Shown: positions 3,167 through 60,044 of the stretch, in pieces
Numbering within the stretch: position 1 is the stretch's first letter
How the letters are laid out: the number at the start of each line of letters is the position of its first letter
Virus genome (UHGV): UHGV-0371537
Reading direction: 5' to 3' (one strand)
Source of the DNA: a virus
DNA length: 64,000 nt
Made by a program: the position numbers and the translations under genes
Notes under the pieces: generated by a model
Told to the model about the DNA's origin: nothing
Database searches by the model: none
Seen by the model: only the letters and a program-made list of their open reading frames with translations

Positions 3167-3259
3167 TAATTTCGCTTTATTCAATATGTTTTGTTAGGTA
3201 AGCTGTAGTCCTCTTGTAGTGAACATGAAAGTAAACATTAACCCAACGGAGAAATCCAG

Positions 3260-3538
3260 ATGAATCGTACTGAATTTGTTGCCCACATTGCTTCGACCCA
3301 GAACATCACCAAAGGCGAAGCGGAGAAAGTAGTGGCATCCTTTATCGACGGCGTTAAAACTGCAGTTGCTGCAGGTGCGTCTGTACAGCTGGTCGGCTTC
3401 GGCGCGTTCGAAGTTAAAGCGCAAGAAGCGCGTGAAGGTCGCAACCCTCTGAACGGCCAGACCATTCAGATCGCGGCGAAAAACGTTGTGAAATTCAAAG
3501 TGGGCGAAGGTCTGAAGAACGCTGCCAACGGCAAGTAA
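3260..3538 (+). CDS. HU/IHF-family DNA-binding protein
   Basis: 92 aa; ...GFGAFEVKAQEAREGRNPLNGQTIQIAAKNVVKFKVGEGLK matches the HU/IHF fold signature; SD GGAGAAA upstream; terminator follows. Confidence 0.85.
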   Translation: MNRTEFVAHIASTQNITKGEAEKVVASFIDGVKTAVAAGASVQLVGFGAFEVKAQEAREGRNPLNGQTIQIAAKNVVKFKVGEGLKNAANGK

Positions 3539-3589
3539 TTCTATCTGACGCGCGGCCTGGCTCTGCGACGCAGGGTATGGCAAAAGAGA

Positions 3590-3620
3590 AAGCCGGGGCA
3601 AACGCTCCGGCTTTTTCGTT
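3590..3620 (+). terminator. rho-independent terminator after HU gene
   Basis: Hairpin AGCCGGGG-caaacg-CTCCGGCT followed by TTTTCGTT. Confidence 0.6.
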
Positions 3621-3666: not shown

Positions 3667-5385
3667 GTGACAGCATTCAATCAATATACCAAGGCGCTTG
3701 ATGGCGTCGGACCAGTTAGCATAGACCGCATCAAGTCTCTTGCCACTGAGTTCTTCCCATACGACACCGCCAACCCCGGCCAGATGGAGTGCATCGTTGA
3801 AGCCGTTGATGCCCTTGTGAATAAGAAATTCAAACACGTGATCATCGAGGCTCCAACTGGTGTGGGCAAATCCCTCATTGGCACGACCATCCATAACGTG
3901 CTTCGCCATCTGGTTCTTGAGCGCAACCCATATGGTCAGTTCCGCACGTCTATCACGACGCCGACCAAAGGGCTACAGGATCAGTATGCGGCGGAGAAAG
4001 CCGTGGCGATAGACATCCTGAAGGGTAAGAAAAACTATCGTTGCCATATCAGTCCCGACCTGTACTACAACGCCATTCAGTGTCGTATGGCATGCCGTGA
4101 CGGCCACTGTAGTAAGAATCGTTGCCCATATGTTCAGGCTCGTCGTCTTTGGACGGATATCTCCTCCCTGCGCTGCACCAACGCCGCCATGATGGTGGAG
4201 ATGTGCACGACGATCTGTATGAAGCCCGAAAACCGCGCCGATATGCTGATCCTTGACGAGTGCCATAAGATGCCCTCTACGCTCCTAGAGCACACGATCA
4301 TGGAATACAGTATAAATGCTGTAAGAGGGTTGCTTACAATCCCCGAGGGAGTGCCTATCGTGGAGACCATCACGGATATCATCAGGCGCACAGAAAACTA
4401 TGAGCTGGGCAAGCTGTACTCACTAACAGGTGAGATGCATGCGATCTTTGACGACCTGCATGACAAGGTTGAAGCCCTCTTAGAAACCCTTGAGGAACTG
4501 GTAGAAGACGAGCGCCTGACGGAAGCTCAGGTGATGAAGCTGTCTGACATCATTGACACCCTTCACAACCTCAGCGACTACTGTGGCATCATGGGTCAGA
4601 CCAACGCCAGCACCTTCATCGTTCAGGAAAAAGACAAGGGTATGATCCAGTTCAAGCCTGTCATCGCATCTGATGTGTCTCAGTTCGGCCTGTTCCGCAA
4701 GGGCGATTACCATGTTCACATGTCAGCGACCATCTGCGGGATTGAGTCCTATGCTCGTTCTCTGGGTATCCGTGAGGGCGAATATCACAAGATTCAAATC
4801 GGCAACCCCATCCCGATTGAGAATCGTAAGGTCAACTACATGCCCGTCATGAAGATGTCGGCCAACATGGGCGACTACGAGATGAAGAAGCTGGCCGAGT
4901 ACGTGGATGAGATCATTGCATTCCATCCAGGACAGTCTGGCATCATTCACACAGTCAGTTATGACCGCGCTCTGGCTCTACAGAAGTTCAGCAAGTACCG
5001 GAATATGATTCACGTTCCTCGTACTCGTAAGGCTCTGATGGATATCATGGAGCAGGCGTTCAGGACGAAGACGCCTTGTGTCATCGCCAGTCCGGCTATG
5101 GAAGAGGGGTATGACTTCAAAGGCGATTACAGCCGCTTCCAGATCCTGATCAAGGTTCCATACGATTACCTTGGTGACCCGCTTGTGGCTCATGTAAACA
5201 GTGTAGACCCTTCGGCATACTTCAGGATGGCGGTACTGCGTATCGTGCAGATGTGCGGGCGCTCGGTCAGGGGTGTGAATGACTGGGCTGCGACATACAT
5301 CCTTGATTCTTCATTTGAATCATTAATGATGCGCAACCCAGAGTTCTTCCCCGCATGGTTCACCGATGCTGTGTTCGAGGTTTAG
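3667..5385 (+). CDS. SF2 helicase, DinG/Rad3(XPD)-like with Cys-rich putative Fe-S insert
   Basis: Walker A EAPTGVGKSL, DECH box (LILDECHK), Cys cluster between them (RCHISPDLYYNAIQCRMACRDGHCSKNRCPY); GTG start after TAGGAGGAAG. Confidence 0.7.
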   Translation: MTAFNQYTKALDGVGPVSIDRIKSLATEFFPYDTANPGQMECIVEAVDALVNKKFKHVIIEAPTGVGKSLIGTTIHNVLRHLVLERNPYGQFRTSITTPTKGLQDQYAAEKAVAIDILKGKKNYRCHISPDLYYNAIQCRMACRDGHCSKNRCPYVQARRLWTDISSLRCTNAAMMVEMCTTICMKPENRADMLILDECHKMPSTLLEHTIMEYSINAVRGLLTIPEGVPIVETITDIIRRTENYELGKLYSLTGEMHAIFDDLHDKVEALLETLEELVEDERLTEAQVMKLSDIIDTLHNLSDYCGIMGQTNASTFIVQEKDKGMIQFKPVIASDVSQFGLFRKGDYHVHMSATICGIESYARSLGIREGEYHKIQIGNPIPIENRKVNYMPVMKMSANMGDYEMKKLAEYVDEIIAFHPGQSGIIHTVSYDRALALQKFSKYRNMIHVPRTRKALMDIMEQAFRTKTPCVIASPAMEEGYDFKGDYSRFQILIKVPYDYLGDPLVAHVNSVDPSAYFRMAVLRIVQMCGRSVRGVNDWAATYILDSSFESLMMRNPEFFPAWFTDAVFEV

Positions 5386-6149
5386 TAACCCGCCACGAAG
5401 GACAGATGGCATTTGACATTAGGTTCCAATGATGTCACTGAAATTGTCATGCTGTCCGAATCTTGGCTGAAACTAATGTTGGCGAGAGGTTTGGTCTGTA
5501 TGTGATTGTAGATGCTGTAGAACAGATCCTCGCCACGATACCCGACCTTGCCATCGGTGTCCTGCCAATGCCCCAGGGTTTCATCGTATACATGCACACG
5601 AAACTCGATCATGTGGAAGAGTGCCTTGGGGATGTCTTTGAGTATACTGGTGCCAACCACCGGAATCTCAATAGCTGAATCATTAGAATTCCCTTCATAG
5701 ACCGAAGCCCATGCGAAGGTAGGATCACCGCCTGCAACAGGTGTACGCTTCCAGTATTGGAACTCAGGGTTGCCTGAAGTGTTCTTCTGAAGTAGAATGA
5801 CTTCGCCACCTGTGAAGTTCGTGGTGTCAATGTCATCTCTCTCAAGTACATCGGCCGGAGACCCAATAAATTTCCAGCCTTCGCGATCCAGAAGAGACTT
5901 ATAATAGTCGGTGAACACGTTGCTATCGCCAGCGGAGTTGATGGCGTCTTTGAGGCCTTGGCCTGTCACCATCTCATTCAGGCGAAGCCACATGTCCTTG
6001 ACGGCAGACGCAGCTGCGACCTGCCCGACAGTCCCACCTGCAGTGTAATCATAGATGATATCTTCGAACTTGATAGCATCATTGATGGACAAGAGCAGTT
6101 GCTCAATCTGCGGTGCGGTGAGACTGAAACGATATGCGCGGGGTGCCAT
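5382..6149 (-). CDS. hypothetical late protein (possible virion component)
   Basis: ATG at 6149 preceded by AGAGGAA SD and an exact TATAAATA about 35 nt upstream; track ORF extends further upstream. Confidence 0.5.
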   Translation of the reverse strand: MAPRAYRFSLTAPQIEQLLLSINDAIKFEDIIYDYTAGGTVGQVAAASAVKDMWLRLNEMVTGQGLKDAINSAGDSNVFTDYYKSLLDREGWKFIGSPADVLERDDIDTTNFTGGEVILLQKNTSGNPEFQYWKRTPVAGGDPTFAWASVYEGNSNDSAIEIPVVGTSILKDIPKALFHMIEFRVHVYDETLGHWQDTDGKVGYRGEDLFYSIYNHIQTKPLANISFSQDSDSMTISVTSLEPNVKCHLSFVAGY

Positions 6150-6194: not shown

Positions 6195-6722
6195 ATGATA
6201 GAAATTTATTCTGACGGGGGTTCTAACCCGAAGACCAACCAGGCCGCAGGCTGGGCATTTGCCATTAAGCCGATGTCGGGTATGCAATGGAAAGTGTTCT
6301 TTGGGCACCTTCCGCCGCCATCGACGAATAATATCGCCGAGTTGTTGGGAGTCACGAACGCATTGAAATTACTGTGGGCATTCTCTAGAAAGGGTGAGCG
6401 CAGCATACCGGACGTCCGCATCTGGTCCGACAGCCAATACACCATCAATAGCGTACTGGAGTGGCGAGCGAAGTGGGAGTATCAGGGGTTCCCGGAAAAG
6501 AACGTTGAACTCATAAAAGATCTGTTCAGGATCTATGATCTCGTTAGTTCAATTTGTGAAGTTGAACTAAAATGGGTCAAAGGTCATGCGGGTGTTGAAG
6601 GTAACGAACTCGCAGACACGTGGGCTACTGCAGCCAAGAATGACAGCAACTTCCTGATTGAGAACGACAAGATCTCTGTGAAGAAAGTTGTTGGATCTTT
6701 TGATGAATTTATCGGTATCTGA
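6195..6722 (+). CDS. RNase H (RNase HI family)
   Basis: MIEIYSDGGS... aligns with the E. coli RNase HI N-terminus (catalytic D in SDGG), TNN.AEL, WSDSQY, KWVKGHAG..GNE.AD motifs. Confidence 0.75.
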   Translation: MIEIYSDGGSNPKTNQAAGWAFAIKPMSGMQWKVFFGHLPPPSTNNIAELLGVTNALKLLWAFSRKGERSIPDVRIWSDSQYTINSVLEWRAKWEYQGFPEKNVELIKDLFRIYDLVSSICEVELKWVKGHAGVEGNELADTWATAAKNDSNFLIENDKISVKKVVGSFDEFIGI

Positions 6723-6733
6723 GGGTTCCCACA

Positions 6734-28187: not shown

Positions 28188-29798
28188 TTACTCTTCGGTG
28201 CCGAAATTACCACCATTGTCTTTTAATTCTGCCTTGATATCAATCTCACCTGGACCCGTAGGGGATGCAGGGGTTGCACCTGACAGAGAAGAGGCGCGAC
28301 CAGCACCTTCCGCATATTTGATGTTGCCATTAATCGTCTGGGCCACAGTCAGTTTGTCGGCGATGATCTCTGTTGCCAGAATCTTAGGAACCTTCAACGT
28401 CCCGCCGACCTCCAGAGTCTCACAGATAATACGCAAAATATTCTGCGCCTGCAACTCAGCCAGGTTGCTGAATTTCATCAACGCTGTGCCAGCAACAACA
28501 TTAGAATAGTTGTTGGAATGCAAATGATAGACTTCACCAGTCTTGCGCTGCACTTCCGTTCCTTTGATCGTCAGGTTGTGATCGCCGCCAACATAATAAC
28601 GTTTGTTGAACATCGTCAGATCATAATGATCTTTCACAGACTTGTTCACAACGTCACCGTCTGGCAGCATTTGTTTGTACGACCCGGACATGTGCATCCA
28701 GTGAAGACGTTCGCCCCCCGGTGTGTCATCCACTTCCATGATGTGGCCAGCCCGAGAAGCCATGACGTTGTTGTACGGATACTTGGACCCACCCGCAGCC
28801 GGAACCATAGTTTCGCCAGTGTTGTCAATGTCCTGAACACGGCCTGTTGGTGCTGGCGTTGCCTGCTCTTTCGGAGTCCGATCTGGAATTGGTTCTGACC
28901 ATTTACCGTTCTGTTGGGCGGGGGCAGCCGCAGCTGTGTTTGCAGGTCCAGGCCAGCGATAGCCCAAGACCGAAGAACGGCTGAAACGACTGACCTTCAC
29001 TGAATCGGATTGGTTGCCCCCGATACACCAGACATAGTTGGCATCGAACTTCTGCACGAACGCCACATGGCCGAATGTCGGGTTGTTACCGCGCCGGAAG
29101 ACCACGATAGCGCCATACTGAGGTGCCGACAATGGACTACCCCACGTCAGGTAAGATCGGGCAAGAGCGGAGCGTGTGGAAGTGTATCCGGCCTTTAACA
29201 TAACCCAACCAACAAACGCAGCGCACCAGGATACTTCATCTTCAGATGCACCAAGCGAGGTTGTCTTGTGATACTCAACGATGCGGGGGTTGTTGTTGAA
29301 CTTGCCAGCATATTCTTTGACGCCAAGTTCACCACGGGCGATAGTCATCCATTTTTCAGGATCATACCCACCCACAGGAGGCTGAGGGTCTGGCTGAGGT
29401 TCGTCTTCTTGCTTTACAGGTACATCAGTGACAGCATTGTACGCCTGACGTTCAACAGACATGACGACCTGCCCCAGAGCCAGGGGGTTTGTGTCCGCCC
29501 CATCAGTCGGGGTCGCACCCGGCCAGGTCCATGCGATTCTGAGATTCTGGTATGCGTCATCCAGCGCGAACCCCATGACTTCCGTGCCGACAATGATACC
29601 CGTAGGGGACCAACCTAAACCTGCCGAGGAGGCATTCGACGCAGGCATCATCACTTTTGCCCATGGGAGTTTATCCGTAGGCAAGAGGACGGGATCATCT
29701 GTATGTATGCCGTGTATGCGAACGGCCACGCGCCCGTTTTCATCAGGATCATTGACGTCTTCAACGGTGCCATAAAACCATCTCATTTTGTCTAACAT
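28188..29798 (-). CDS. baseplate central spike (gp5-like) with internal cell-wall hydrolase-like domain
   Basis: N-terminal gp5/VgrG-like OB segment (GTVEDVNDPDENGRVAVRIHGIHTDD...LPWA); middle CHAP/NlpC-like region (WCAAFVGW ... GHVAFV); C-terminal repetitive beta-rich tail. Confidence 0.6.
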   Translation of the reverse strand: MLDKMRWFYGTVEDVNDPDENGRVAVRIHGIHTDDPVLLPTDKLPWAKVMMPASNASSAGLGWSPTGIIVGTEVMGFALDDAYQNLRIAWTWPGATPTDGADTNPLALGQVVMSVERQAYNAVTDVPVKQEDEPQPDPQPPVGGYDPEKWMTIARGELGVKEYAGKFNNNPRIVEYHKTTSLGASEDEVSWCAAFVGWVMLKAGYTSTRSALARSYLTWGSPLSAPQYGAIVVFRRGNNPTFGHVAFVQKFDANYVWCIGGNQSDSVKVSRFSRSSVLGYRWPGPANTAAAAPAQQNGKWSEPIPDRTPKEQATPAPTGRVQDIDNTGETMVPAAGGSKYPYNNVMASRAGHIMEVDDTPGGERLHWMHMSGSYKQMLPDGDVVNKSVKDHYDLTMFNKRYYVGGDHNLTIKGTEVQRKTGEVYHLHSNNYSNVVAGTALMKFSNLAELQAQNILRIICETLEVGGTLKVPKILATEIIADKLTVAQTINGNIKYAEGAGRASSLSGATPASPTGPGEIDIKAELKDNGGNFGTEE

Positions 29799-29832
29799 AT
29801 TGAGTTCCGGTTGTCAAACAAGGATTTGAAGG

Positions 29833-29840
29833 TATTTATG
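29833..29840 (-). promoter_or_regulatory. possible late promoter variant (CATAAATA) for spike gene
   Basis: TAAATA core about 34 nt upstream of ATG at 29798. Confidence 0.3.
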
Positions 29841-30136
29841 CGCAGCGGATTTTGCCTTATATACTATAGGAAGCTCTGCTTCCGTTCAGTTATTGTCTTA
29901 TTCGATCTTATTCGCTTCGCTCATCACACCGCCTTATGCAGGCAGCACCATTCCAATGCCATGGAGGCATAAGGGCGAGGCAATAACTGTACACCTCAGA
30001 ACATCCCTTGAAAAATGGTTTTTAATTGACAATCTGATTCAAAATAGACGATCCCCAACAATGACTCAGGAACAAGCCCATTATAACAATTTCAGGTAAA
30101 GAGAGCGCGTGTTAACCTGTTTTGCAGTTAAGCCAA

Positions 30137-30165
30137 TAAAAATCCCGCCGAAGCGGGATTATGGT
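30137..30165 (-). terminator. rho-independent terminator (minus strand)
   Basis: On minus strand AATCCCGC-TTCG-GCGGGATT followed by TTTTATT, downstream of gene 30308..31114. Confidence 0.65.
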
Positions 30166-30307
30166 TTCTTAGACAACCTGACCTTGAGGGCTTCAGTTAA
30201 CAAGTCAAGGTGCCATGGCATCGATTCATTGATTTCAAATATGTTATAGCCGTGTAACTTCAATTCATCACACATCACGAAATAGGATAATAAATCAGTT
30301 TCAAACA

Positions 30308-31114
30308 TTAAATGAAAATTTCATTAATGCTATTGAACTCAATAGGATGCTCTTTACCACATTTAGGGCATTTGATTTTGTTCTTGTAGTGGATGCGAGG
30401 AATTTTATGGAAGAAGTTCTTCGTAATATCCTCGATAACATCCGATTCAAGATTGTCTTTTACCCATTCAATGAAAGCGTCTTTGACACGACGACGCTCA
30501 ATAGATTCTTCGGGCGTGATGCCCGGTTCATCCGGGTTCTCTACACGCCATACTTGTCCATCGTCATCATACAGACAATCAATGAAAGTCGCCAGCATTT
30601 CTTCAATGCTAGATGATTCAGACAGAGCCGTGGCATCGGCAAAGGAGGGCTGGCGCATCTTCAGATGATAACCACCCGGCAGGTCAAAGATTTCTTTAAA
30701 CCCTTCCTTCGCTACACACTTGACATTCAGTAGAGGGATAGGCAGCACCAGTTCCTGCTTACAAGGAACCATGGTTTTCTTCTCGATTCCTTCCCCGACG
30801 TCTGTCGTTTCTTCGATTTGGTTGTTGCATTCATAGCGGATTTTCATCAATTCGCCAATAGCGATGCTACGCATGCGGATGAACACTTCTTCAACAACAC
30901 CGATCGGCAGTTTGTTAAACGGTGCCCCGGCTTCAACACAATCTGCAAACAGGCTTTCCATAATCGCAGCACGCTCTTCAACCGGAGTCTGAGGATCCGC
31001 GACCTGTAGCATGAGAGTTTGTTGCCCGGCAGTGAAAGCGCGATATCTGATGACACTCGGCCAAAAATCGCTTTTGAATGTCTTTTCTGTTCTGGGCAAT
31101 GAAGGTAATTTCAT
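30308..31114 (-). CDS. late protein, possible baseplate hub component (C-terminal zinc ribbon)
   Basis: Start MKLPSLPRTEK after SD; exact TATAAATA about 28 nt upstream; C-terminal CPKCGKEH. Confidence 0.5.
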   Translation of the reverse strand: MKLPSLPRTEKTFKSDFWPSVIRYRAFTAGQQTLMLQVADPQTPVEERAAIMESLFADCVEAGAPFNKLPIGVVEEVFIRMRSIAIGELMKIRYECNNQIEETTDVGEGIEKKTMVPCKQELVLPIPLLNVKCVAKEGFKEIFDLPGGYHLKMRQPSFADATALSESSSIEEMLATFIDCLYDDDGQVWRVENPDEPGITPEESIERRRVKDAFIEWVKDNLESDVIEDITKNFFHKIPRIHYKNKIKCPKCGKEHPIEFNSINEIFI

Positions 31115-31142
31115 AATGTATCTCCATGGTATATTGTAAGGA

Positions 31143-31150
31143 TATTTATA
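31143..31150 (-). promoter_or_regulatory. T4-type late promoter TATAAATA
   Basis: Exact TATAAATA on minus strand upstream of start at 31114. Confidence 0.6.
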
Positions 31151-31163
31151 ACGAGGAATGAAA

Positions 31164-31688
31164 ATGCGCGGATTCTGTTTTAGCGAAATTGGCAAAGAAC
31201 TGTCGATACAATATCCAGACCCCAATACAGACTTCTTTATTTTCTTGTCTGACTATGCCCAGAAAGAGAATATTAGTCACATTGCGATGAAGTACGAAGA
31301 TTATAAATTTTGTCGATTGGGTGTTAAGGATCTCTTGCGCTTCGGACTGTGTGTCATTATCGTAGATCAAACCTATAGCCCCATTGATGATGAAGAAGTC
31401 CTTCCTGTTTTCGTACATCGCAATATCAACACTCTGGATACACATTTTCCTGGGTGTGTGGTCGTTGGTGAGCTGGTTCCTTATTTCCACCGTTTGCGGA
31501 AGTTGGAACAAATTAAAAGTTATTTTCAAGATGGCGTGGGTCAATATAAGATGAACGTCCTCGGTAGTGGATGGAAAGTGTTGTCAACAGCTGGTGGCAC
31601 CGACTATATCAAAATGCGGGTCTATGGTTATGACGTGGACCGCGATTATGAACTGGAGAAAAGTAATGCAAAAAGAAAACGCCGTTGA
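31164..31688 (+). CDS. hypothetical protein
   Basis: ATG 31164 with GAGGAA SD (alternative ATG at 31158). Confidence 0.4.
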   Translation: MRGFCFSEIGKELSIQYPDPNTDFFIFLSDYAQKENISHIAMKYEDYKFCRLGVKDLLRFGLCVIIVDQTYSPIDDEEVLPVFVHRNINTLDTHFPGCVVVGELVPYFHRLRKLEQIKSYFQDGVGQYKMNVLGSGWKVLSTAGGTDYIKMRVYGYDVDRDYELEKSNAKRKRR

Positions 31689-38636: not shown

Positions 38637-38668
38637 GGGGCTGCTATAATAGCAGCTCCTTTTGTTTA
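38637..38668 (+). terminator. rho-independent terminator with TATAAT in the hairpin
   Basis: GGGCTGCTAT-A-ATAGCAGCTCC hairpin followed by TTTTGTTTATT; TGcTATAAT (extended -10-like) inside the stem. Confidence 0.6.
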
Positions 38669-38680
38669 TTGGAGCAGTCT

Positions 38681-39346
38681 ATGTCCTACTCCCTCAAGGG
38701 GTTGCTCAAGCGCCCCGTCCACACATTCATTAAACCGCCTGTCGTAAAGGGGATATACCCGGCACGAGGGCAAATCTATTACGTCAAAGGCTCGAATGGT
38801 AGCGGTAAATCTACCGTGCCTTCCCAGCTGGCGGAGAGGGATCCTCAGGCGTATGTCGTGACGCATGATAGCAAGATCATGCTGACGGTCTGTCCGTCAT
38901 TCAACGTGGTCTGCATTGGCAAATATGATAAGTCAAAGTCCAAGGGGGTTGATTCTCTGAAGGATACTGAACAAATGCTATTCGCCCTGAGCATCGCCGA
39001 TCTACCTGAATATCAGGTATACGATGTGATCTTTGAAGGCATCATCCCGTCAACACTGCTGAGTTCCTGGATTCCCCGCCTGACGCGCCCACCGCGCGAA
39101 CTGGTTGTCCTCTTCATGGACACCCCTCTTGAAACCTGCATCGCCCGTGTTAAATCACGTAACGGCGGTGCGGACTTCAATGAGAGCCTCGTGGTAGAGA
39201 AGTGGGGGCGCGTTCAAGACCACCGCCAGCGCCATAAGGGCTTGTTCCCTACGGTGGCCGCAGGTATGATGAAGTCTCACGGTCTAACAGTAGACCAGGC
39301 TGTAATGGCATTCCTCTGTCGTGATTTTGGGGATATTGATGACTAA
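38681..39346 (+). CDS. P-loop kinase (candidate nucleotide/nucleic-acid kinase of the base-modification module)
   Basis: Walker A GSNGSGKST near N-terminus; ATG 38681 with GGAG SD; adjacent to TS-family and dNMP kinase genes. Confidence 0.55.
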   Translation: MSYSLKGLLKRPVHTFIKPPVVKGIYPARGQIYYVKGSNGSGKSTVPSQLAERDPQAYVVTHDSKIMLTVCPSFNVVCIGKYDKSKSKGVDSLKDTEQMLFALSIADLPEYQVYDVIFEGIIPSTLLSSWIPRLTRPPRELVVLFMDTPLETCIARVKSRNGGADFNESLVVEKWGRVQDHRQRHKGLFPTVAAGMMKSHGLTVDQAVMAFLCRDFGDIDD

Positions 39347-59634: not shown

Positions 59635-60044
59635 TCTAAAATCGATACGTTCACAAACCCCTTATGCCAGCGATGGGGTTTATGGCCTCTGTTGTGTTCG
59701 AGCAAACACGTGTCCGGTGGGACACTGAAGTGGATGCCGTCGATGTCGTAGTAATGCCCATCAATCAGAGTATACACATGACCTTCGGTCTGACTGTAAT
59801 GGATCTCTGCTTGAGGGTACACGTGCTTCAACAACAGAGCGACCTGGTAACACTTCCCGTTCTTCCCCACGTACTCGACATCCACCTGTTGTGGAAACAC
59901 ATCTTTGACAAGGTTTATCAATCTCGTGATGTCATTTACAACAACCGAACGTTTCATATCGCCTCTCCCGAGGATTCGTTGGTGAACCAATGATACTCTA
60001 TCCCGGATATAGAAAAGCCCCTCACGGGGCTTGATCATCTTCAT
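59616..60044 (-). CDS. hypothetical protein
   Basis: ORF overlapping neighbours; start uncertain. Confidence 0.3.

What the first reader, a model, noticed from the sequence alone, without database searches (positions are those of the whole stretch)
29799..30307. About 500-bp coding-poor gap upstream of the baseplate spike gene with long-range inverted repeats
This is the largest gap in a tightly packed genome. It holds a long-range inverted repeat CCTTATGC (29930..29938) / GCATAAGG (29967..29975) around a 27-nt loop, a short hairpin GAAGC-tct-GCTTC (29868..29882) and a tandem CTTATTCG repeat (29896..29913). The only track ORF (29893..30099) has a TTG start and no SD. The region lies between a minus-strand terminator (30137..30165) and the spike gene start (29798), so it could encode a structured 5' leader or a small RNA.
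Basis: seen in the sequence. Interest (0 to 1): 0.45.

Follow-up and report, generated by a model that had tools for sequence, protein, structure and literature searches.

The report
Conserved structured RNA upstream of spike gene
The gap before the tail-spike gene of this ViI-like (Ackermannviridae) phage is not junk or a hidden protein gene: it holds a strongly conserved, folded non-coding element, apparently undescribed, with sister copies in front of two other genes in related phages, and its function is unknown.

Summary
However, 150 nt of the "gap" is a real 49-aa gene (30159-30308, minus strand), so the non-coding gap is 29799-30158.

What is real is a conserved element of about 230 nt on the gp5-sense (minus) strand. 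Its core (29906-30012) varies about six times less than synonymous sites in flanking genes. It shows no codon periodicity and has 1-nt indels, so it is not coding.

Compensatory substitutions support five helices:
- a small hairpin
- an H-type pseudoknot (29948-29970)
- hairpin Ha (29928-29946)
- a tandem-G·A hairpin Hd (29910-29924)
- hairpin Hc (29869-29883)

G·U pairs favour the minus strand. A conserved extended -10 (30080-30088) lies upstream and the late promoter (29833-40) lies downstream.

Paralogous copies sit upstream of gp6 and gp45 in relatives, and Hd recurs in distant Vibrio phages. There was no Rfam match and I found no description in the papers I could search. Function is inferred only. 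Most likely it is a cis-acting leader or ncRNA bound by a shared factor. Rivals are a trans-acting sRNA and an R-loop replication origin.

The parts
30159..30308 (-). 49-aa gene (ORF060 homologue; weak resemblance to a baseplate hub assembly catalyst). It is not part of the element and bounds it upstream.
   Evidence: phrog_9633 E = 8e-38 and phrog_634 E = 7e-4. Annotated in LIMEstone1, Ag3 and AV101. Substitutions show codon periodicity, 11/29/7.
30133..30160 (-). Intrinsic terminator of the gp26-ORF060 operon: AATCCCGC-TTCG-GCGGGATT followed by a T run.
   Evidence: Terminator scan. Annotated as a terminator in LIMEstone1, May and Magnus. The stem differs between genera but is retained.
30080..30088 (-). 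Extended -10 TGTTATAAT, the candidate sigma70-type promoter of the element. No -35 hexamer is present.
   Evidence: One of only 3 TGNTATAAT matches in 64 kb. AAATTG(T/C)TATAA(T/C) is near-invariant in 21 distinct sequences. TATAAT/TATATG occupies the same place in Ea2809 and MAM1. Function is inferred.
30013..30075 (-). 5' domain, which varies between lineages. It is conserved within Aglimvirinae, shared with Miltonvirus, and differs in Kuttervirus and Taipeivirus.
   Evidence: 84-94% identity within Aglimvirinae and about 50% to Kuttervirus/Taipeivirus. MAM1 shares UUGUUGGGGA..UUUUGAA...
30010..30023 (-). A5-N3-U5 box AAAAACCAUUUUUC, shared by all paralogous copies. No role assigned.
   Evidence: Present in gp5-, gp6- and gp45-upstream copies of LIMEstone1, AV101, May, Maynard and MAM1.
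29987..29999 (-). Small hairpin CUG-N7-CAG.
   Evidence: 3 pairs, 33/33 cells paired. Taipeivirus has U-G and G-U, which are valid only on this strand. The gp6 copy has ACUG..CAGU at the same place.
29948..29970 (-). H-type pseudoknot. Stem 1 is AUGCC/GGCAU (29966-70 with 29956-60). Stem 2 is CCAU/AUGG (29961-64 with 29948-51).
   Evidence: Stem 1 has two compensatory pairs against the gp6 paralogue (CAGCC/GGCUG). Stem 2 changes A-U to C-G in Taipeivirus. All cells are paired.
29928..29946 (-). Hairpin Ha, GCUGCCU-GCAUA-AGGCGGU.
   Evidence: 7 pairs. C-G changes to U-A in Taipeivirus. One pair shows the series U-A / U-G / C-G. Two pairs are constant G-U.
29910..29924 (-). Hairpin Hd, A-U-G-A-G-C-GAA-G-C-G-A-A-U, with inferred tandem sheared G.A pairs. 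It is the universal core of the family.
   Evidence: The closing pair is U-A here and C-G elsewhere, a compensatory change. The loop is replaced by a 7-bp stem in the AV101 and Maynard gp6 copies. The motif is present in MAM1, Ea2809 and distant Vibrio phages.
29884..29909 (-). AT-rich and poorly conserved.
   Evidence: 54-92% identity. The long-range pairing of this segment with 29978-29992 is not conserved.
29861..29888 (-). Hairpin Hc, GGAAGC-AGA-GCUUCC (29869-29883), with invariant flanks GAAC (29884-87) and UAUAGUAU (29861-68).
   Evidence: 6 pairs, 72/72 cells paired, 2 compensatory pairs including GGCGGC/GCCGCC in Ea2809. The flanks resemble -35/-10 hexamers; this is my reading and was not tested.
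29833..29840 (-). Late promoter CATAAATA of gp5.
   Evidence: Annotated as a late promoter in LIMEstone1. Named as Porf084 (gp5) in the AG3 paper. ATAAATA is invariant in all sequences.
28188..29798 (-). gp5 baseplate hub / tail lysozyme gene, the gene downstream of the element.
   Evidence: ORF list. 97% amino-acid identity to Dickeya phage gp5.

Best explanation
The 360-nt gap holds one copy of a family of conserved, strand-specific, structured non-coding elements found in ViI-like (Ackermannviridae) phages.

The element reads on the minus strand, the same sense as gp5. In order it contains:
- the terminator of the upstream operon
- an extended -10 promoter (30080-30088)
- a lineage-variable 5' domain
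- an A5N3U5 box
- a small hairpin
- an H-type pseudoknot
- hairpin Ha
- the tandem-G.A hairpin Hd
- an A-rich linker
- hairpin Hc
- the late promoter and gp5

Sister copies lie upstream of gp6 and gp45 in relatives.

Most likely mechanism (inferred, not shown): host RNA polymerase starts near 30072-30075 before late transcription begins and makes a folded RNA of at least 210 nt. This RNA acts in cis as the leader of a pre-late transcript and/or as a processed stable RNA. A shared trans-acting factor, phage or host protein, recognises the invariant Hd hairpin and the pseudoknot-Ha module. That would couple or time the expression of the downstream genes (gp5, gp6, gp45). Late transcripts starting at 29833-40 would escape this control.

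Confidence by part: about 0.8 that this is a selected, structured, non-coding element in this strand; about 0.35-0.4 for the cis-leader/factor-binding mechanism specifically.
For: Conservation:
- The gap alone is 95.6% identical to Ag3, against 89.5% for the gap plus flanks.
- The core 29906-30012 is 92-96% identical within Aglimvirinae, against 84% for gp5 and 75-78% for gp26. It is 75-77% identical to Kuttervirus/Taipeivirus, against 74-76% and 65-67%.
- Among four Aglimvirinae sequences, 10% of core positions vary, against 61% of gp5 third-codon positions.

Not coding:
- Variable sites by codon phase are 12/15/11 in the + strand ORF, against 27/204/6 in gp5.
- 1-nt indels occur inside the core.
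- No PHROG or Pfam hit for any gap ORF.

Structure:
- 209/209 and 228/228 cells form standard pairs, with 3 and 6 compensatory pairs. Slid controls give 27-54%.
- Hc has 72/72 cells paired with 2 compensatory pairs.
- The window fold has z = -2.7.

Strand:
- 29 of 209 cells are G-U and would be A-C on the plus strand.
- Helix Ha is fully canonical only on the minus strand.
- Alifold energy is -30.8 against -24.8.

Promoter:
- TGTTATAAT is conserved.
- LIMEstone1's authors annotated a host-type -10 in the sense strand upstream of the gp45 copy.

Family:
- Paralogues lie upstream of gp6 (AV101, May, Maynard, MAM1, LIMEstone1) and gp45 (LIMEstone1 and an Erwinia-type phage).
- nhmmer links gp5up to gp6up at E = 1.7e-9 and gp45up to gp6up at E = 3e-4.
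- The covariance model gives one 90-bit hit in the window and two full hits in LIMEstone1.
- Two of the three copies lie in divergent intergenic regions, so they need a promoter of their own.
- Hd recurs next to gp5 and gp6 in distant Vibrio phages.
Against: - There are no transcript data, so the start, the end and even the transcribed strand are inferred.
- The promoter has no -35, and the consensus scan found no sigma70 promoter in 29500-30600.
- No terminator follows the element, and the late promoter downstream means late mRNAs would lack it. A cis role requires a pre-late read-through transcript of late genes, which is unproven.
- Covariation rests on only 3-4 independent lineages plus paralogues that show signs of concerted evolution. 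The tool warns that related sequences can beat shuffles without any structure.
- Folding energy does not discriminate between strands (z = -2.70 against -2.76).
- Loop 3 of the pseudoknot (4 nt across a 5-bp stem) is sterically tight. Stems 1 and 2 could be alternative conformers rather than simultaneous.
- G-U pairs would be G-T in single-stranded DNA of the same strand, so RNA is not formally distinguished from displaced DNA.
- No complementarity to the gp5 ribosome-binding site is conserved.
Confidence: 0.5

Rival explanations
1. A trans-acting small RNA gene. The element is transcribed from the extended -10 promoter and ends or is processed at hairpin Hc. The stable RNA of about 210 nt acts elsewhere, by base-pairing or as a protein sponge. 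The gp6- and gp45-upstream copies would be sibling sRNAs with shared protein-binding modules and variable targeting modules.
For: It has its own conserved promoter-like -10. A conserved covarying 3' hairpin, Hc, is present. The paralogues are modular, with invariant and variable parts, as in sibling sRNAs. The 5' domain varies between lineages.
Against: Hc is followed by UAUAGUAU rather than a U tract, and the terminator scan finds nothing there. All copies sit immediately upstream of a late promoter and a specific gene, in the same orientation, which a free-standing sRNA gene does not require. No significant complementarity to the rest of the 64-kb window was found.
Confidence: 0.2
2. A T4-style R-loop replication origin, or primer RNA locus. 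A pre-late promoter drives a transcript that forms a persistent RNA-DNA hybrid over the AT-rich linker. The conserved hairpins fold in the RNA and/or in the displaced non-template DNA strand, which has the same sequence, and stabilise the open structure. The two to three copies per genome would be the phage's multiple origins.
For: T4 oriF and oriG are a promoter plus an AT-rich downstream unwinding element. oriE, mapped near repEA, which in phage T2 is annotated beside gene 5, depends on an early promoter. The most active T4 origins lie near points of transcriptional divergence (T2 annotation). Here there are 2-3 copies per genome, two of them in divergent intergenic regions. A promoter-like -10 is followed by an AT-rich stretch before a GC box. 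Hd contains GCGAAGC, which from memory is the very stable GNA mini-hairpin reported for DNA, including phage origins. G-T wobble is tolerated in DNA. A local cumulative GC-skew minimum lies about 1.2 kb away, at the strand switch.
Against: T4 origins share no sequence motif, and R-loop formation there does not depend on specific sequence, whereas this element is under tight sequence and structure constraint. A pseudoknot with compensatory changes is more typical of RNA than of DNA. No MotA-type middle promoter is present, and no MotA/AsiA homologues are reported in this family. The direct repeats are not conserved, so they are not iterons. The skew minimum coincides with the change in gene orientation and is not specific.
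Confidence: 0.12
3. A purely DNA-level regulatory cassette: stacked promoters, terminator-like hairpins and protein-binding sites, analogous to the promoter/stem-loop (PeSL) cassettes of T4-type phages. On this view there is no function for a folded RNA, and hairpin conservation reflects termination/insulation or recombination.
For: The invariant flanks of Hc look like -35/-10 hexamers (TTGAAC-N15/17-TATAAT in Kuttervirus) around a covarying spacer. A hairpin followed by (U/C)AUA(A/G)U recurs in Vibrio phages next to TATAAT. The element is multi-copy and always precedes a late promoter. PeSLs are composite promoter/terminator motifs.
Against: PeSLs are small (about 50 bp from memory; the paper says only 'small'), occur as series of copies (many per genome, from memory), lie preferentially in hyperplastic regions and are tied to variable ORFs. 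This element is 230-330 nt, has 2-3 copies, sits at fixed positions next to core genes in every genus, and includes a pseudoknot and tandem-G.A helices with compensatory changes and G-U asymmetry. Insulation does not explain these. A canonical terminator already precedes the element.
Confidence: 0.1
4. A missed small protein gene: the TTG ORF 29893-30099, the ATG ORF from 29956 that ChubbyThor annotates as gp110, or a minus-strand ORF.
For: The ORF is open in the window and in Kuttervirus by my reading of the alignment. One GenBank record annotates it.
Against: Substitutions show no codon periodicity (12/15/11 and 36/34/36). 1-nt indels lie within the most conserved stretch and truncate the ORF in Taipeivirus. 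The C-terminal half is unrelated between genera. No PHROG or Pfam hit. There is no Shine-Dalgarno sequence.
Confidence: 0.02

Closest known systems
T4 gene 32 mRNA autoregulatory leader (5' H-type pseudoknot followed by an unstructured A/U-rich tract; recalled from established T4 literature)
   Same: It is also in a T4-related myovirus. A compact H-type pseudoknot lies upstream of an A-rich, poorly structured stretch in the sense strand of the downstream gene. A protein-nucleated control mechanism is plausible.
   Different: There is no sequence or Rfam similarity. Here a late promoter lies between the element and the gene. The downstream products (gp5, gp6, gp45) are not known RNA-binding autoregulators. 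The element has four further helices and exists in 2-3 paralogous copies.
PeSL / PmSL promoter-stem-loop cassettes of T4-type phages (Arbiol 2010; Comeau 2014, PMC4122927)
   Same: Both are repeated intergenic modules in T4-related genomes that combine promoter-like hexamers with stem-loops. The Hc-plus-flanks portion resembles such a unit.
   Different: PeSLs are small (about 50 bp from memory), occur as series of copies (many per genome, from memory), lie preferentially in hyperplastic regions and are linked to gene shuffling. This element is 230-330 nt, has 2-3 copies, is positionally fixed next to core genes across genera, and carries a pseudoknot and tandem-G.A helices with covariation.
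T4 replication origins oriF/oriG (promoter plus DUE, R-loop) and oriE, mapped near repEA (beside gene 5 in the T2 annotation) (PMC3016281)
   Same: Several copies per genome, a pre-late promoter followed by an AT-rich stretch, location at or near transcriptional divergence, and one copy next to gp5.
   Different: T4 origins share no motif and need no specific RNA sequence. This family is sequence- and structure-constrained. No origin activity has been tested.
HK022 put RNAs (putL/putR; recalled from memory)
   Same: Both are paralogous, cis-acting, two-hairpin RNAs encoded just downstream of early promoters and acting on the transcribing polymerase. They set a precedent for sibling structured leader RNAs in one phage genome.
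   Different: There is no sequence or structure similarity. No downstream terminators to be overridden are evident here. The idea is untested.
GNA-triloop mini-hairpin GCGAAGC (recalled from memory: Hirao et al., NAR 1992/1994)
   Same: The tip of Hd in Aglimvirinae and in the Vibrio phages is exactly GCGAAGC. Other genera have GCGUAGC, which is also a GNA loop.
   Different: Kuttervirus (UUCA), Magnus (AAC), IME250 (AUA) and the 7-bp insertion in gp6 copies show that the loop is not the conserved part. The flanking G.A/A.G layer and its closing pair are.

Membership tests
Any Rfam 15 family | Covariance-model score at or near the family's gathering threshold | tested here: not met
   For the window 29000-31000 the best hits fall outside the element or far below gathering (rsmX 23 bits against 56, in ORF060). 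The gp6 and gp45 copies have best E = 1.1 and 2.5. No tRNA or tmRNA was found.
PeSL promoter/terminator cassette | Near-consensus sigma70 -35/-10 promoter joined to a terminator stem-loop in a small composite motif (about 50 bp from memory) | tested here: not met
   The consensus scan finds no sigma70 promoter in 29500-30600. The only terminator belongs to ORF060. The element is about 230-300 nt.
PeSL promoter/terminator cassette | Series of copies (many per genome, from memory), preferentially in hyperplastic regions and often beside variable ORFs | tested here: not met
   There are 3 copies in about 147 of the 152 kb of LIMEstone1. They lie at the same core genes (gp5, gp6, gp45) in all genera examined.
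T4-type R-loop origin (oriF/oriG) | MotA-dependent middle promoter (MotA box at -30 plus -10) | tested here: not met
   Only an extended -10 is present. No TGCTT box is seen upstream by reading. The CBA120 paper reports no MotA/AsiA homologues in this family.
T4-type R-loop origin (oriF/oriG) | AT-rich DNA unwinding element downstream of the promoter | tested here: inconclusive
   An A/T-rich linker of 25-60 nt follows Hd in every copy, but it lies 150-200 nt from the putative start and its unwinding was not tested.
T4-type R-loop origin (oriF/oriG) | Persistent R-loop and origin activity early in infection | not testable with these tools
   This needs DRIP, 2D gels or marker-frequency data.
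Gene 32-type autoregulatory leader | H-type pseudoknot in the 5' leader | tested here: met
   Both stems are 100% paired, with compensatory changes in each. Whether they form at the same time was not shown.
Gene 32-type autoregulatory leader | The leader is part of the regulated mRNA and is bound by that gene's own product | not testable with these tools
   A late promoter lies between the element and gp5, and no binding data exist.
T4 lysozyme (e)/soc-type RBS sequestration in early read-through transcripts | Conserved pairing between an upstream segment and the ribosome-binding site, with the late promoter inside the hairpin | tested here: not met
   The complementarity of 29806-29817 with 30026-30037 is 83% (I5). 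The partner segment is unrelated in Kuttervirus and Taipeivirus.
Trans-acting sRNA gene of enterobacterial type | Own promoter plus a Rho-independent terminator | tested here: inconclusive
   A promoter-like -10 is present, but no U-tract terminator lies at the 3' end.
MITE | Terminal inverted repeats and target-site duplication, with recent mobility | tested here: not met
   There are no terminal inverted repeats at the element ends. The only long inverted repeat (I1, 79%) lies in the gp5 leader and in ORF060. The copies are old and divergent (E = 1e-9 over 140 nt) and positionally fixed.
Protein-coding gene | Codon-periodic substitution pattern, an intact frame in relatives, and family hits | tested here: not met
   

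The most novel reading that the evidence does not exclude
The element family (upstream of gp5, gp6 and gp45) marks the replication origins of ViI-like phages. A pre-late transcript folds, together with the displaced non-template strand, into a defined pseudoknot/hairpin architecture that locks an R-loop next to a late promoter. This would give a sequence-specified origin and possibly a built-in site where the replication machinery and the gp45 clamp assemble. It would physically couple origin firing to late transcription of baseplate and clamp genes.
Probability: 0.1. Interest if true: 0.85.

Novelty: new variant of a known kind. Interest (0 to 1): 0.6.

Why it matters
Gene regulation in ViI-like/Ackermannviridae phages is largely unmapped. 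These phages are widely used as Salmonella, E. coli O157, Klebsiella and Dickeya biocontrol agents. The CBA120 genome paper states that early promoters could not be identified and that no homologues of T4's early/middle regulators exist.

A family of conserved structured elements, two to three copies per genome, sitting in front of the spike (gp5), wedge (gp6) and sliding-clamp (gp45) genes is a concrete, testable handle on that problem. Its core hairpin is shared with distant Vibrio phages.

If it is an RNA regulator, it is a new phage RNA class with a defined pseudoknot and a tandem-G·A protein-binding candidate. If it is an origin, it would be a case of T4-type origins sharing a defined structural motif, which the T4 review says T4's own origins lack. 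Either way it should be annotated rather than left as a gap or as a spurious "hypothetical protein".

Tried and rejected
- **Rfam and tRNA scans.** E-value scans of the window region and of the gp6 and gp45 paralogues, plus a tRNA/tmRNA scan, found nothing.
- **Metagenome pattern scan.** TTCCAATGCCNNGGAGGCAT gave 30 hits, all chance matches with no flanking similarity.
It is at chance level, is restricted to Aglimvirinae, and is mutually exclusive with the conserved pseudoknot and Ha.
- **Long-range helix 29884-98 / 29978-92** (in the window's minimum-free-energy fold). It is no better than shuffles in most relatives.
- **Candidate closing helix CCUCGC/GCGAGU.** It shows no covariation and is broken by a deletion in IME250. 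GCGAG is better explained as the 3' half of Hd.
- **Hammerhead-like reading of GUGAUGAGCGAAGCGAA.** It is specific to Aglimvirinae and gives no Rfam hit.
- **Anti-Shine-Dalgarno role for the CCUCC loop.** The loop is used in pseudoknot stem 2. gp5 has no GGAGG. In May, the change in the gp6 ribosome-binding site is not compensatory.
- **RBS sequestration by the 5' domain.** The pairing is not conserved.
- **Small-ORF hypothesis.** Rejected.
- **Second copy inside the window.** None found.
- **MITE reading.** Rejected.
- **Clamp-loading "enhancer" idea.** The published polarity rule says a primer-template junction must lie downstream of its target promoter. That does not fit an upstream R-loop, so I did not adopt it.
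- **Literature searches.** Searches for transcriptomes, sRNAs or conserved intergenic elements in this family returned nothing relevant. One of these was badly framed and wasted.
- **Fold energy as a strand discriminator.** It does not discriminate.
Full report
**Context**

The window belongs to a ViI-like myovirus of the family Ackermannviridae, subfamily Aglimvirinae.
- The 901 nt around the finding are about 90% identical to Dickeya phage LIMEstone1, Shigella phage Ag3 and their relatives.
- The spike protein is 97% identical to that of Dickeya phages.
- On the minus strand the order is: gp26 hub (30308-31225 from the TTG start, or to 31114 from the ATG start that LIMEstone1 uses), a 49-aa gene (30159-30308), an intrinsic terminator (30141-30160), the gap, a late promoter, then gp5 (28188-29798).

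**Checking the observation**

Three corrections are needed.
- The upper 150 nt of the "gap" are a genuine gene. It matches phrog_9633 at E = 8e-38, has a weak match to a baseplate hub assembly catalyst, shows codon-periodic substitutions, and is annotated in several relatives. The non-coding gap is therefore 29799-30158.
- The 8-bp inverted repeat is what chance gives: 26% of shuffles contain one.
- The tandem 9-mer is mildly unusual (3% of shuffles) but is not conserved.

**The gap is under selection and is not coding**
- The gap alone is more conserved than its coding flanks: 95.6% identity to Ag3, against 89.5% for gap plus flanks.
- blastn recovers it at 70-75% identity in Kuttervirus and Taipeivirus, in 272 records in all.
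- By segment, the core 29906-30012 is 92-96% identical within Aglimvirinae, against 84% for gp5 and 75-78% for gp26. Against the other genera it is 75-77% identical, equal to gp5 and above gp26.
- Among four Aglimvirinae sequences, 10% of core positions vary, against 61% of gp5 third-codon positions.
- Variable sites show no three-base periodicity: 12/15/11 in the frame of the TTG ORF, against 27/204/6 in gp5.
- Single-base indels sit inside the most conserved stretch.
- No gap ORF hits PHROGs or Pfam.
- The + strand CDS annotated in phage ChubbyThor is therefore spurious.

**Structure**

I aligned 26 distinct sequences from GenBank phages and IMG/VR and scanned for helices that pair in every sequence. 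On tool alignments A2, A3 and A4 the following helices pair in 100% of cells, while slid controls give 27-57%.
- **Small hairpin**: 29997-99 with 29987-89.
- **Stem 1**: AUGCC/GGCAU, 29966-70 with 29956-60.
- **Stem 2**: CCAU/AUGG, 29961-64 with 29948-51. With stem 1 it makes an H-type pseudoknot.
- **Ha**: 29940-46 with 29928-34.
- **Hd**: 29910-29924.
- **Hc**: 29869-74 with 29878-83.

Compensatory changes occur in stem 1 (two pairs, against the gp6 paralogue), stem 2 (A-U to C-G in Taipeivirus), Ha (C-G to U-A, and the series U-A/U-G/C-G), the Hd closing pair (U-A against C-G) and Hc (A-U/U-A/G-C and A-U/C-G, including GGCGGC/GCCGCC in Erwinia phage Ea2809).

Hd reads [A][C/U]-G-A-G-C-loop-G-C-G-A-[G/A][U]. 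I interpret this as two Watson-Crick pairs, tandem sheared G·A pairs, and two more pairs. Three observations support it:
- the mirror symmetry of the motif;
- the covarying closing pair;
- replacement of the loop by a 7-bp stem in the gp6 copies of AV101 and Maynard.

The G·A pairs themselves are an inference.

**Strand**

Twenty-nine of 209 paired cells are G-U and would be A-C mismatches on the plus strand. Ha is fully canonical only on the minus strand. The alignment fold is better on the minus strand, -30.8 against -24.8. Single-sequence folding does not discriminate, with z about -2.7 on both strands.

**Caveats on the structure**
- The sequences represent only three or four independent lineages plus paralogues.
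- Lineage-specific variants are sometimes shared by both copies in one genome, which suggests concerted evolution.
- The counting tool warns that relatedness alone can beat its shuffles.
- The same pairing could form in single-stranded DNA of that strand.

**Flanking signals**

An extended -10, TGTTATAAT (30080-30088), is one of only three in the 64 kb. It is nearly invariant as AAATTG(T/C)TATAA(T/C), with TATAAT/TATATG at the equivalent place in Ea2809 and MAM1. There is no -35, and the consensus scan calls no promoter.

Downstream, ATAAATA (29833-40) is invariant. LIMEstone1 annotates it as a late promoter and the AG3 paper names it as the gp5 late promoter.

Hc has invariant flanks, GAAC and UAUA(A/G)UAU, that resemble -35/-10 hexamers. 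I could not test this.

**The element is multi-copy**

The 16-mer GAGCGTAGCGAGTGAT, which is Hd plus its flank in Miltonvirus and Nezavisimistyvirus, occurs at two sites in phiMAM1 and three in an Erwinia-type phage.

Following these sites showed paralogues in two further places.
- **Upstream of the gp6 wedge gene**: in MAM1, AV101, May, Maynard and LIMEstone1.
- **Upstream of the gp45 sliding clamp**: in LIMEstone1 and the Erwinia-type phage.

The copies are mosaics of shared modules:
- the A5N3U5 box;
- a CUG/CAG-type hairpin;
- a second tandem-G·A helix, in the gp6 and gp45 copies;
- the pseudoknot plus Ha, in the gp5 and gp6 copies of Aglimvirinae, Kuttervirus and Taipeivirus;
- Hd, in all copies;
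- an AT-rich stretch with a hairpin;
- a CGCGCGAG box;
- a TAAATA-type late promoter.

nhmmer links gp5up to gp6up at E = 1.7e-9 and gp45up to gp6up at E = 3e-4. A covariance model of the pseudoknot-Ha-Hd module finds exactly one hit in the window (29908-29973, 90 bits). It finds two full hits in the roughly 147 kb of LIMEstone1 that I held. The gp6 and gp45 genes are not in this window.

Two of the three copies lie in divergent intergenic regions, so they must have their own promoter. LIMEstone1's authors placed a host-type -10 in the sense strand upstream of the gp45 copy.

**Phylogenetic range**
- Pseudomonas phage Cygsa01 has only 54 nt between the hub genes and gp5, and no element.
- Distant 157-kb Vibrio phages (gp5 44% and gp6 40% amino-acid identity) have large gaps upstream of both gp5 and gp6. 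Each contains GGGG-UGAGCGAAGCGAA-CCCC. This is the same 13-mer as Hd in this window, inside a longer hairpin, preceded by TATAAT and followed by AUAAUCCCCUUU.
- Hd is thus the ancient core of the family.
- Hairpins tipped by this 15-mer are also somewhat over-represented in unrelated viral contigs: 13 have at least 3 extra pairs against about 2 expected.

**Mechanism**

Shown: selection, non-coding status, strand-biased conserved pairing, paralogy, and a fixed position between a promoter-like -10 and a late promoter.

Inferred: transcription by host polymerase before late transcription, and folding into the modules above.

I judge a cis-acting leader or processed ncRNA, recognised by a shared factor through Hd and the pseudoknot-Ha module, to be the most likely mechanism. 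It fits best with three observations:
- the fixed orientation of every copy relative to its downstream gene;
- sequence invariance beyond what pairing alone requires;
- variants shared between copies in one genome.

The rivals are a trans-acting sRNA family, a T4-style R-loop origin, and a DNA-only regulatory cassette.
- **R-loop origin.** T4 origins are a promoter plus an AT-rich element, are multiple, and lie near transcriptional divergence; oriE is mapped near repEA, which the T2 record annotates beside gene 5. However, T4 origins share no motif.
- **DNA-only cassette.** PeSL-type cassettes do not match on size, copy number or location.

**Comparison with known families and novelty**

There is no Rfam 15 match for any of the three copies. 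The genome papers for LIMEstone1, AG3 and CBA120 describe only late promoters and terminators here. CBA120's authors state that early regulation is unidentified. Full-text searches found no transcriptome or ncRNA study for the family.

I therefore regard it as an undescribed RNA or structured-element family of a familiar general kind. My literature search was limited to open-access text.

Noticed in passing
window 30159-30308 (-): A conserved 49-aa gene (phrog_9633, with a weak match to a baseplate hub assembly catalyst) overlaps the gp26 stop codon by one base. It is left unannotated in several relatives (Vi01, EspM4VN, May, IME250).
   Followed up: partly
window 30308-31225 (-): The gp26 start is ambiguous. 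The longest ORF starts at TTG 31225 (305 aa), LIMEstone1 uses the ATG equivalent to 31114 (268 aa), and other records differ (657-921 nt).
   Followed up: no
L085 1436-1800, L086 1446-1800, L087 1438-1800, L088 27138-27469 (-), L077 ~5180-5565: A paralogous structured element lies upstream of the gp6 baseplate wedge gene. It carries an extra tandem-G.A helix (CUUCGAG...CGAGAAG) that itself covaries: CUUU/AAAG in LIMEstone1 and AUAC/GUAU in the gp45 copy.
   Followed up: partly
L089 36398-36740 (-); L076 ~3250-3600 (-): A third family member lies upstream of the sliding-clamp gene gp45. It lacks the pseudoknot/Ha module but keeps the A5N3U5 box, the long tandem-G.A helix and Hd. A late-promoter-like CATAAATG is embedded in a 9-bp hairpin.
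   Followed up: partly
L091 716-1497 (Vibrio phage D532): A non-coding region of about 780 nt lies upstream of gp6. It holds two hairpin-plus-AUA(A/G)UCCC units and a direct repeat, two copies about 170 nt apart sharing at least ~60 nt (CCTCTCCTTGCCTCAGAGCTGTTT.AGTACACAACCAGTTAAATCGTGTACAGCAACA...). The tiny annotated ORFs there look spurious.
   Followed up: no
IMG/VR loci L095, L107, L139, L165/L192, L142/L175: Long hairpins in unrelated viral contigs are tipped by GTGAGCGAAGCGAAC. L139 has two adjacent Hd-type hairpins. Extended stems are more frequent than chance (13 against about 2 expected).
   Followed up: partly
window 38642-38650 (+): A second extended -10 (TGCTATAAT) lies in the 74-nt gap just upstream of the ORF starting at 38681. 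It is a candidate host-type promoter.
   Followed up: no
window 29799-29844: The gp5 leader plus late promoter is 100% identical across Aglimvirinae, although gp5 itself is only 84% identical. In Kuttervirus the late promoter is followed by a local hairpin (ACCCAU...AUGGGU) next to the start codon.
   Followed up: no
GenBank records OR844944.1 and MN871475.1: Records labelled Enterococcus phage Efm 3-10 (38.5 kb) and Pseudomonas phage Pa-sanjiao carry Kuttervirus-type sequence for this gap. They are probably mislabelled or contaminated entries.
   Followed up: no
window 6309-6733 and 59752-60021: These are apparent gaps in my crude ATG/GTG ORF calling, but they read like coding sequence (for example ...GHAGVEGNELADTWATAAK..., which is RNase H-like). 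They are probably genes with unusual starts, not real gaps.
   Followed up: no
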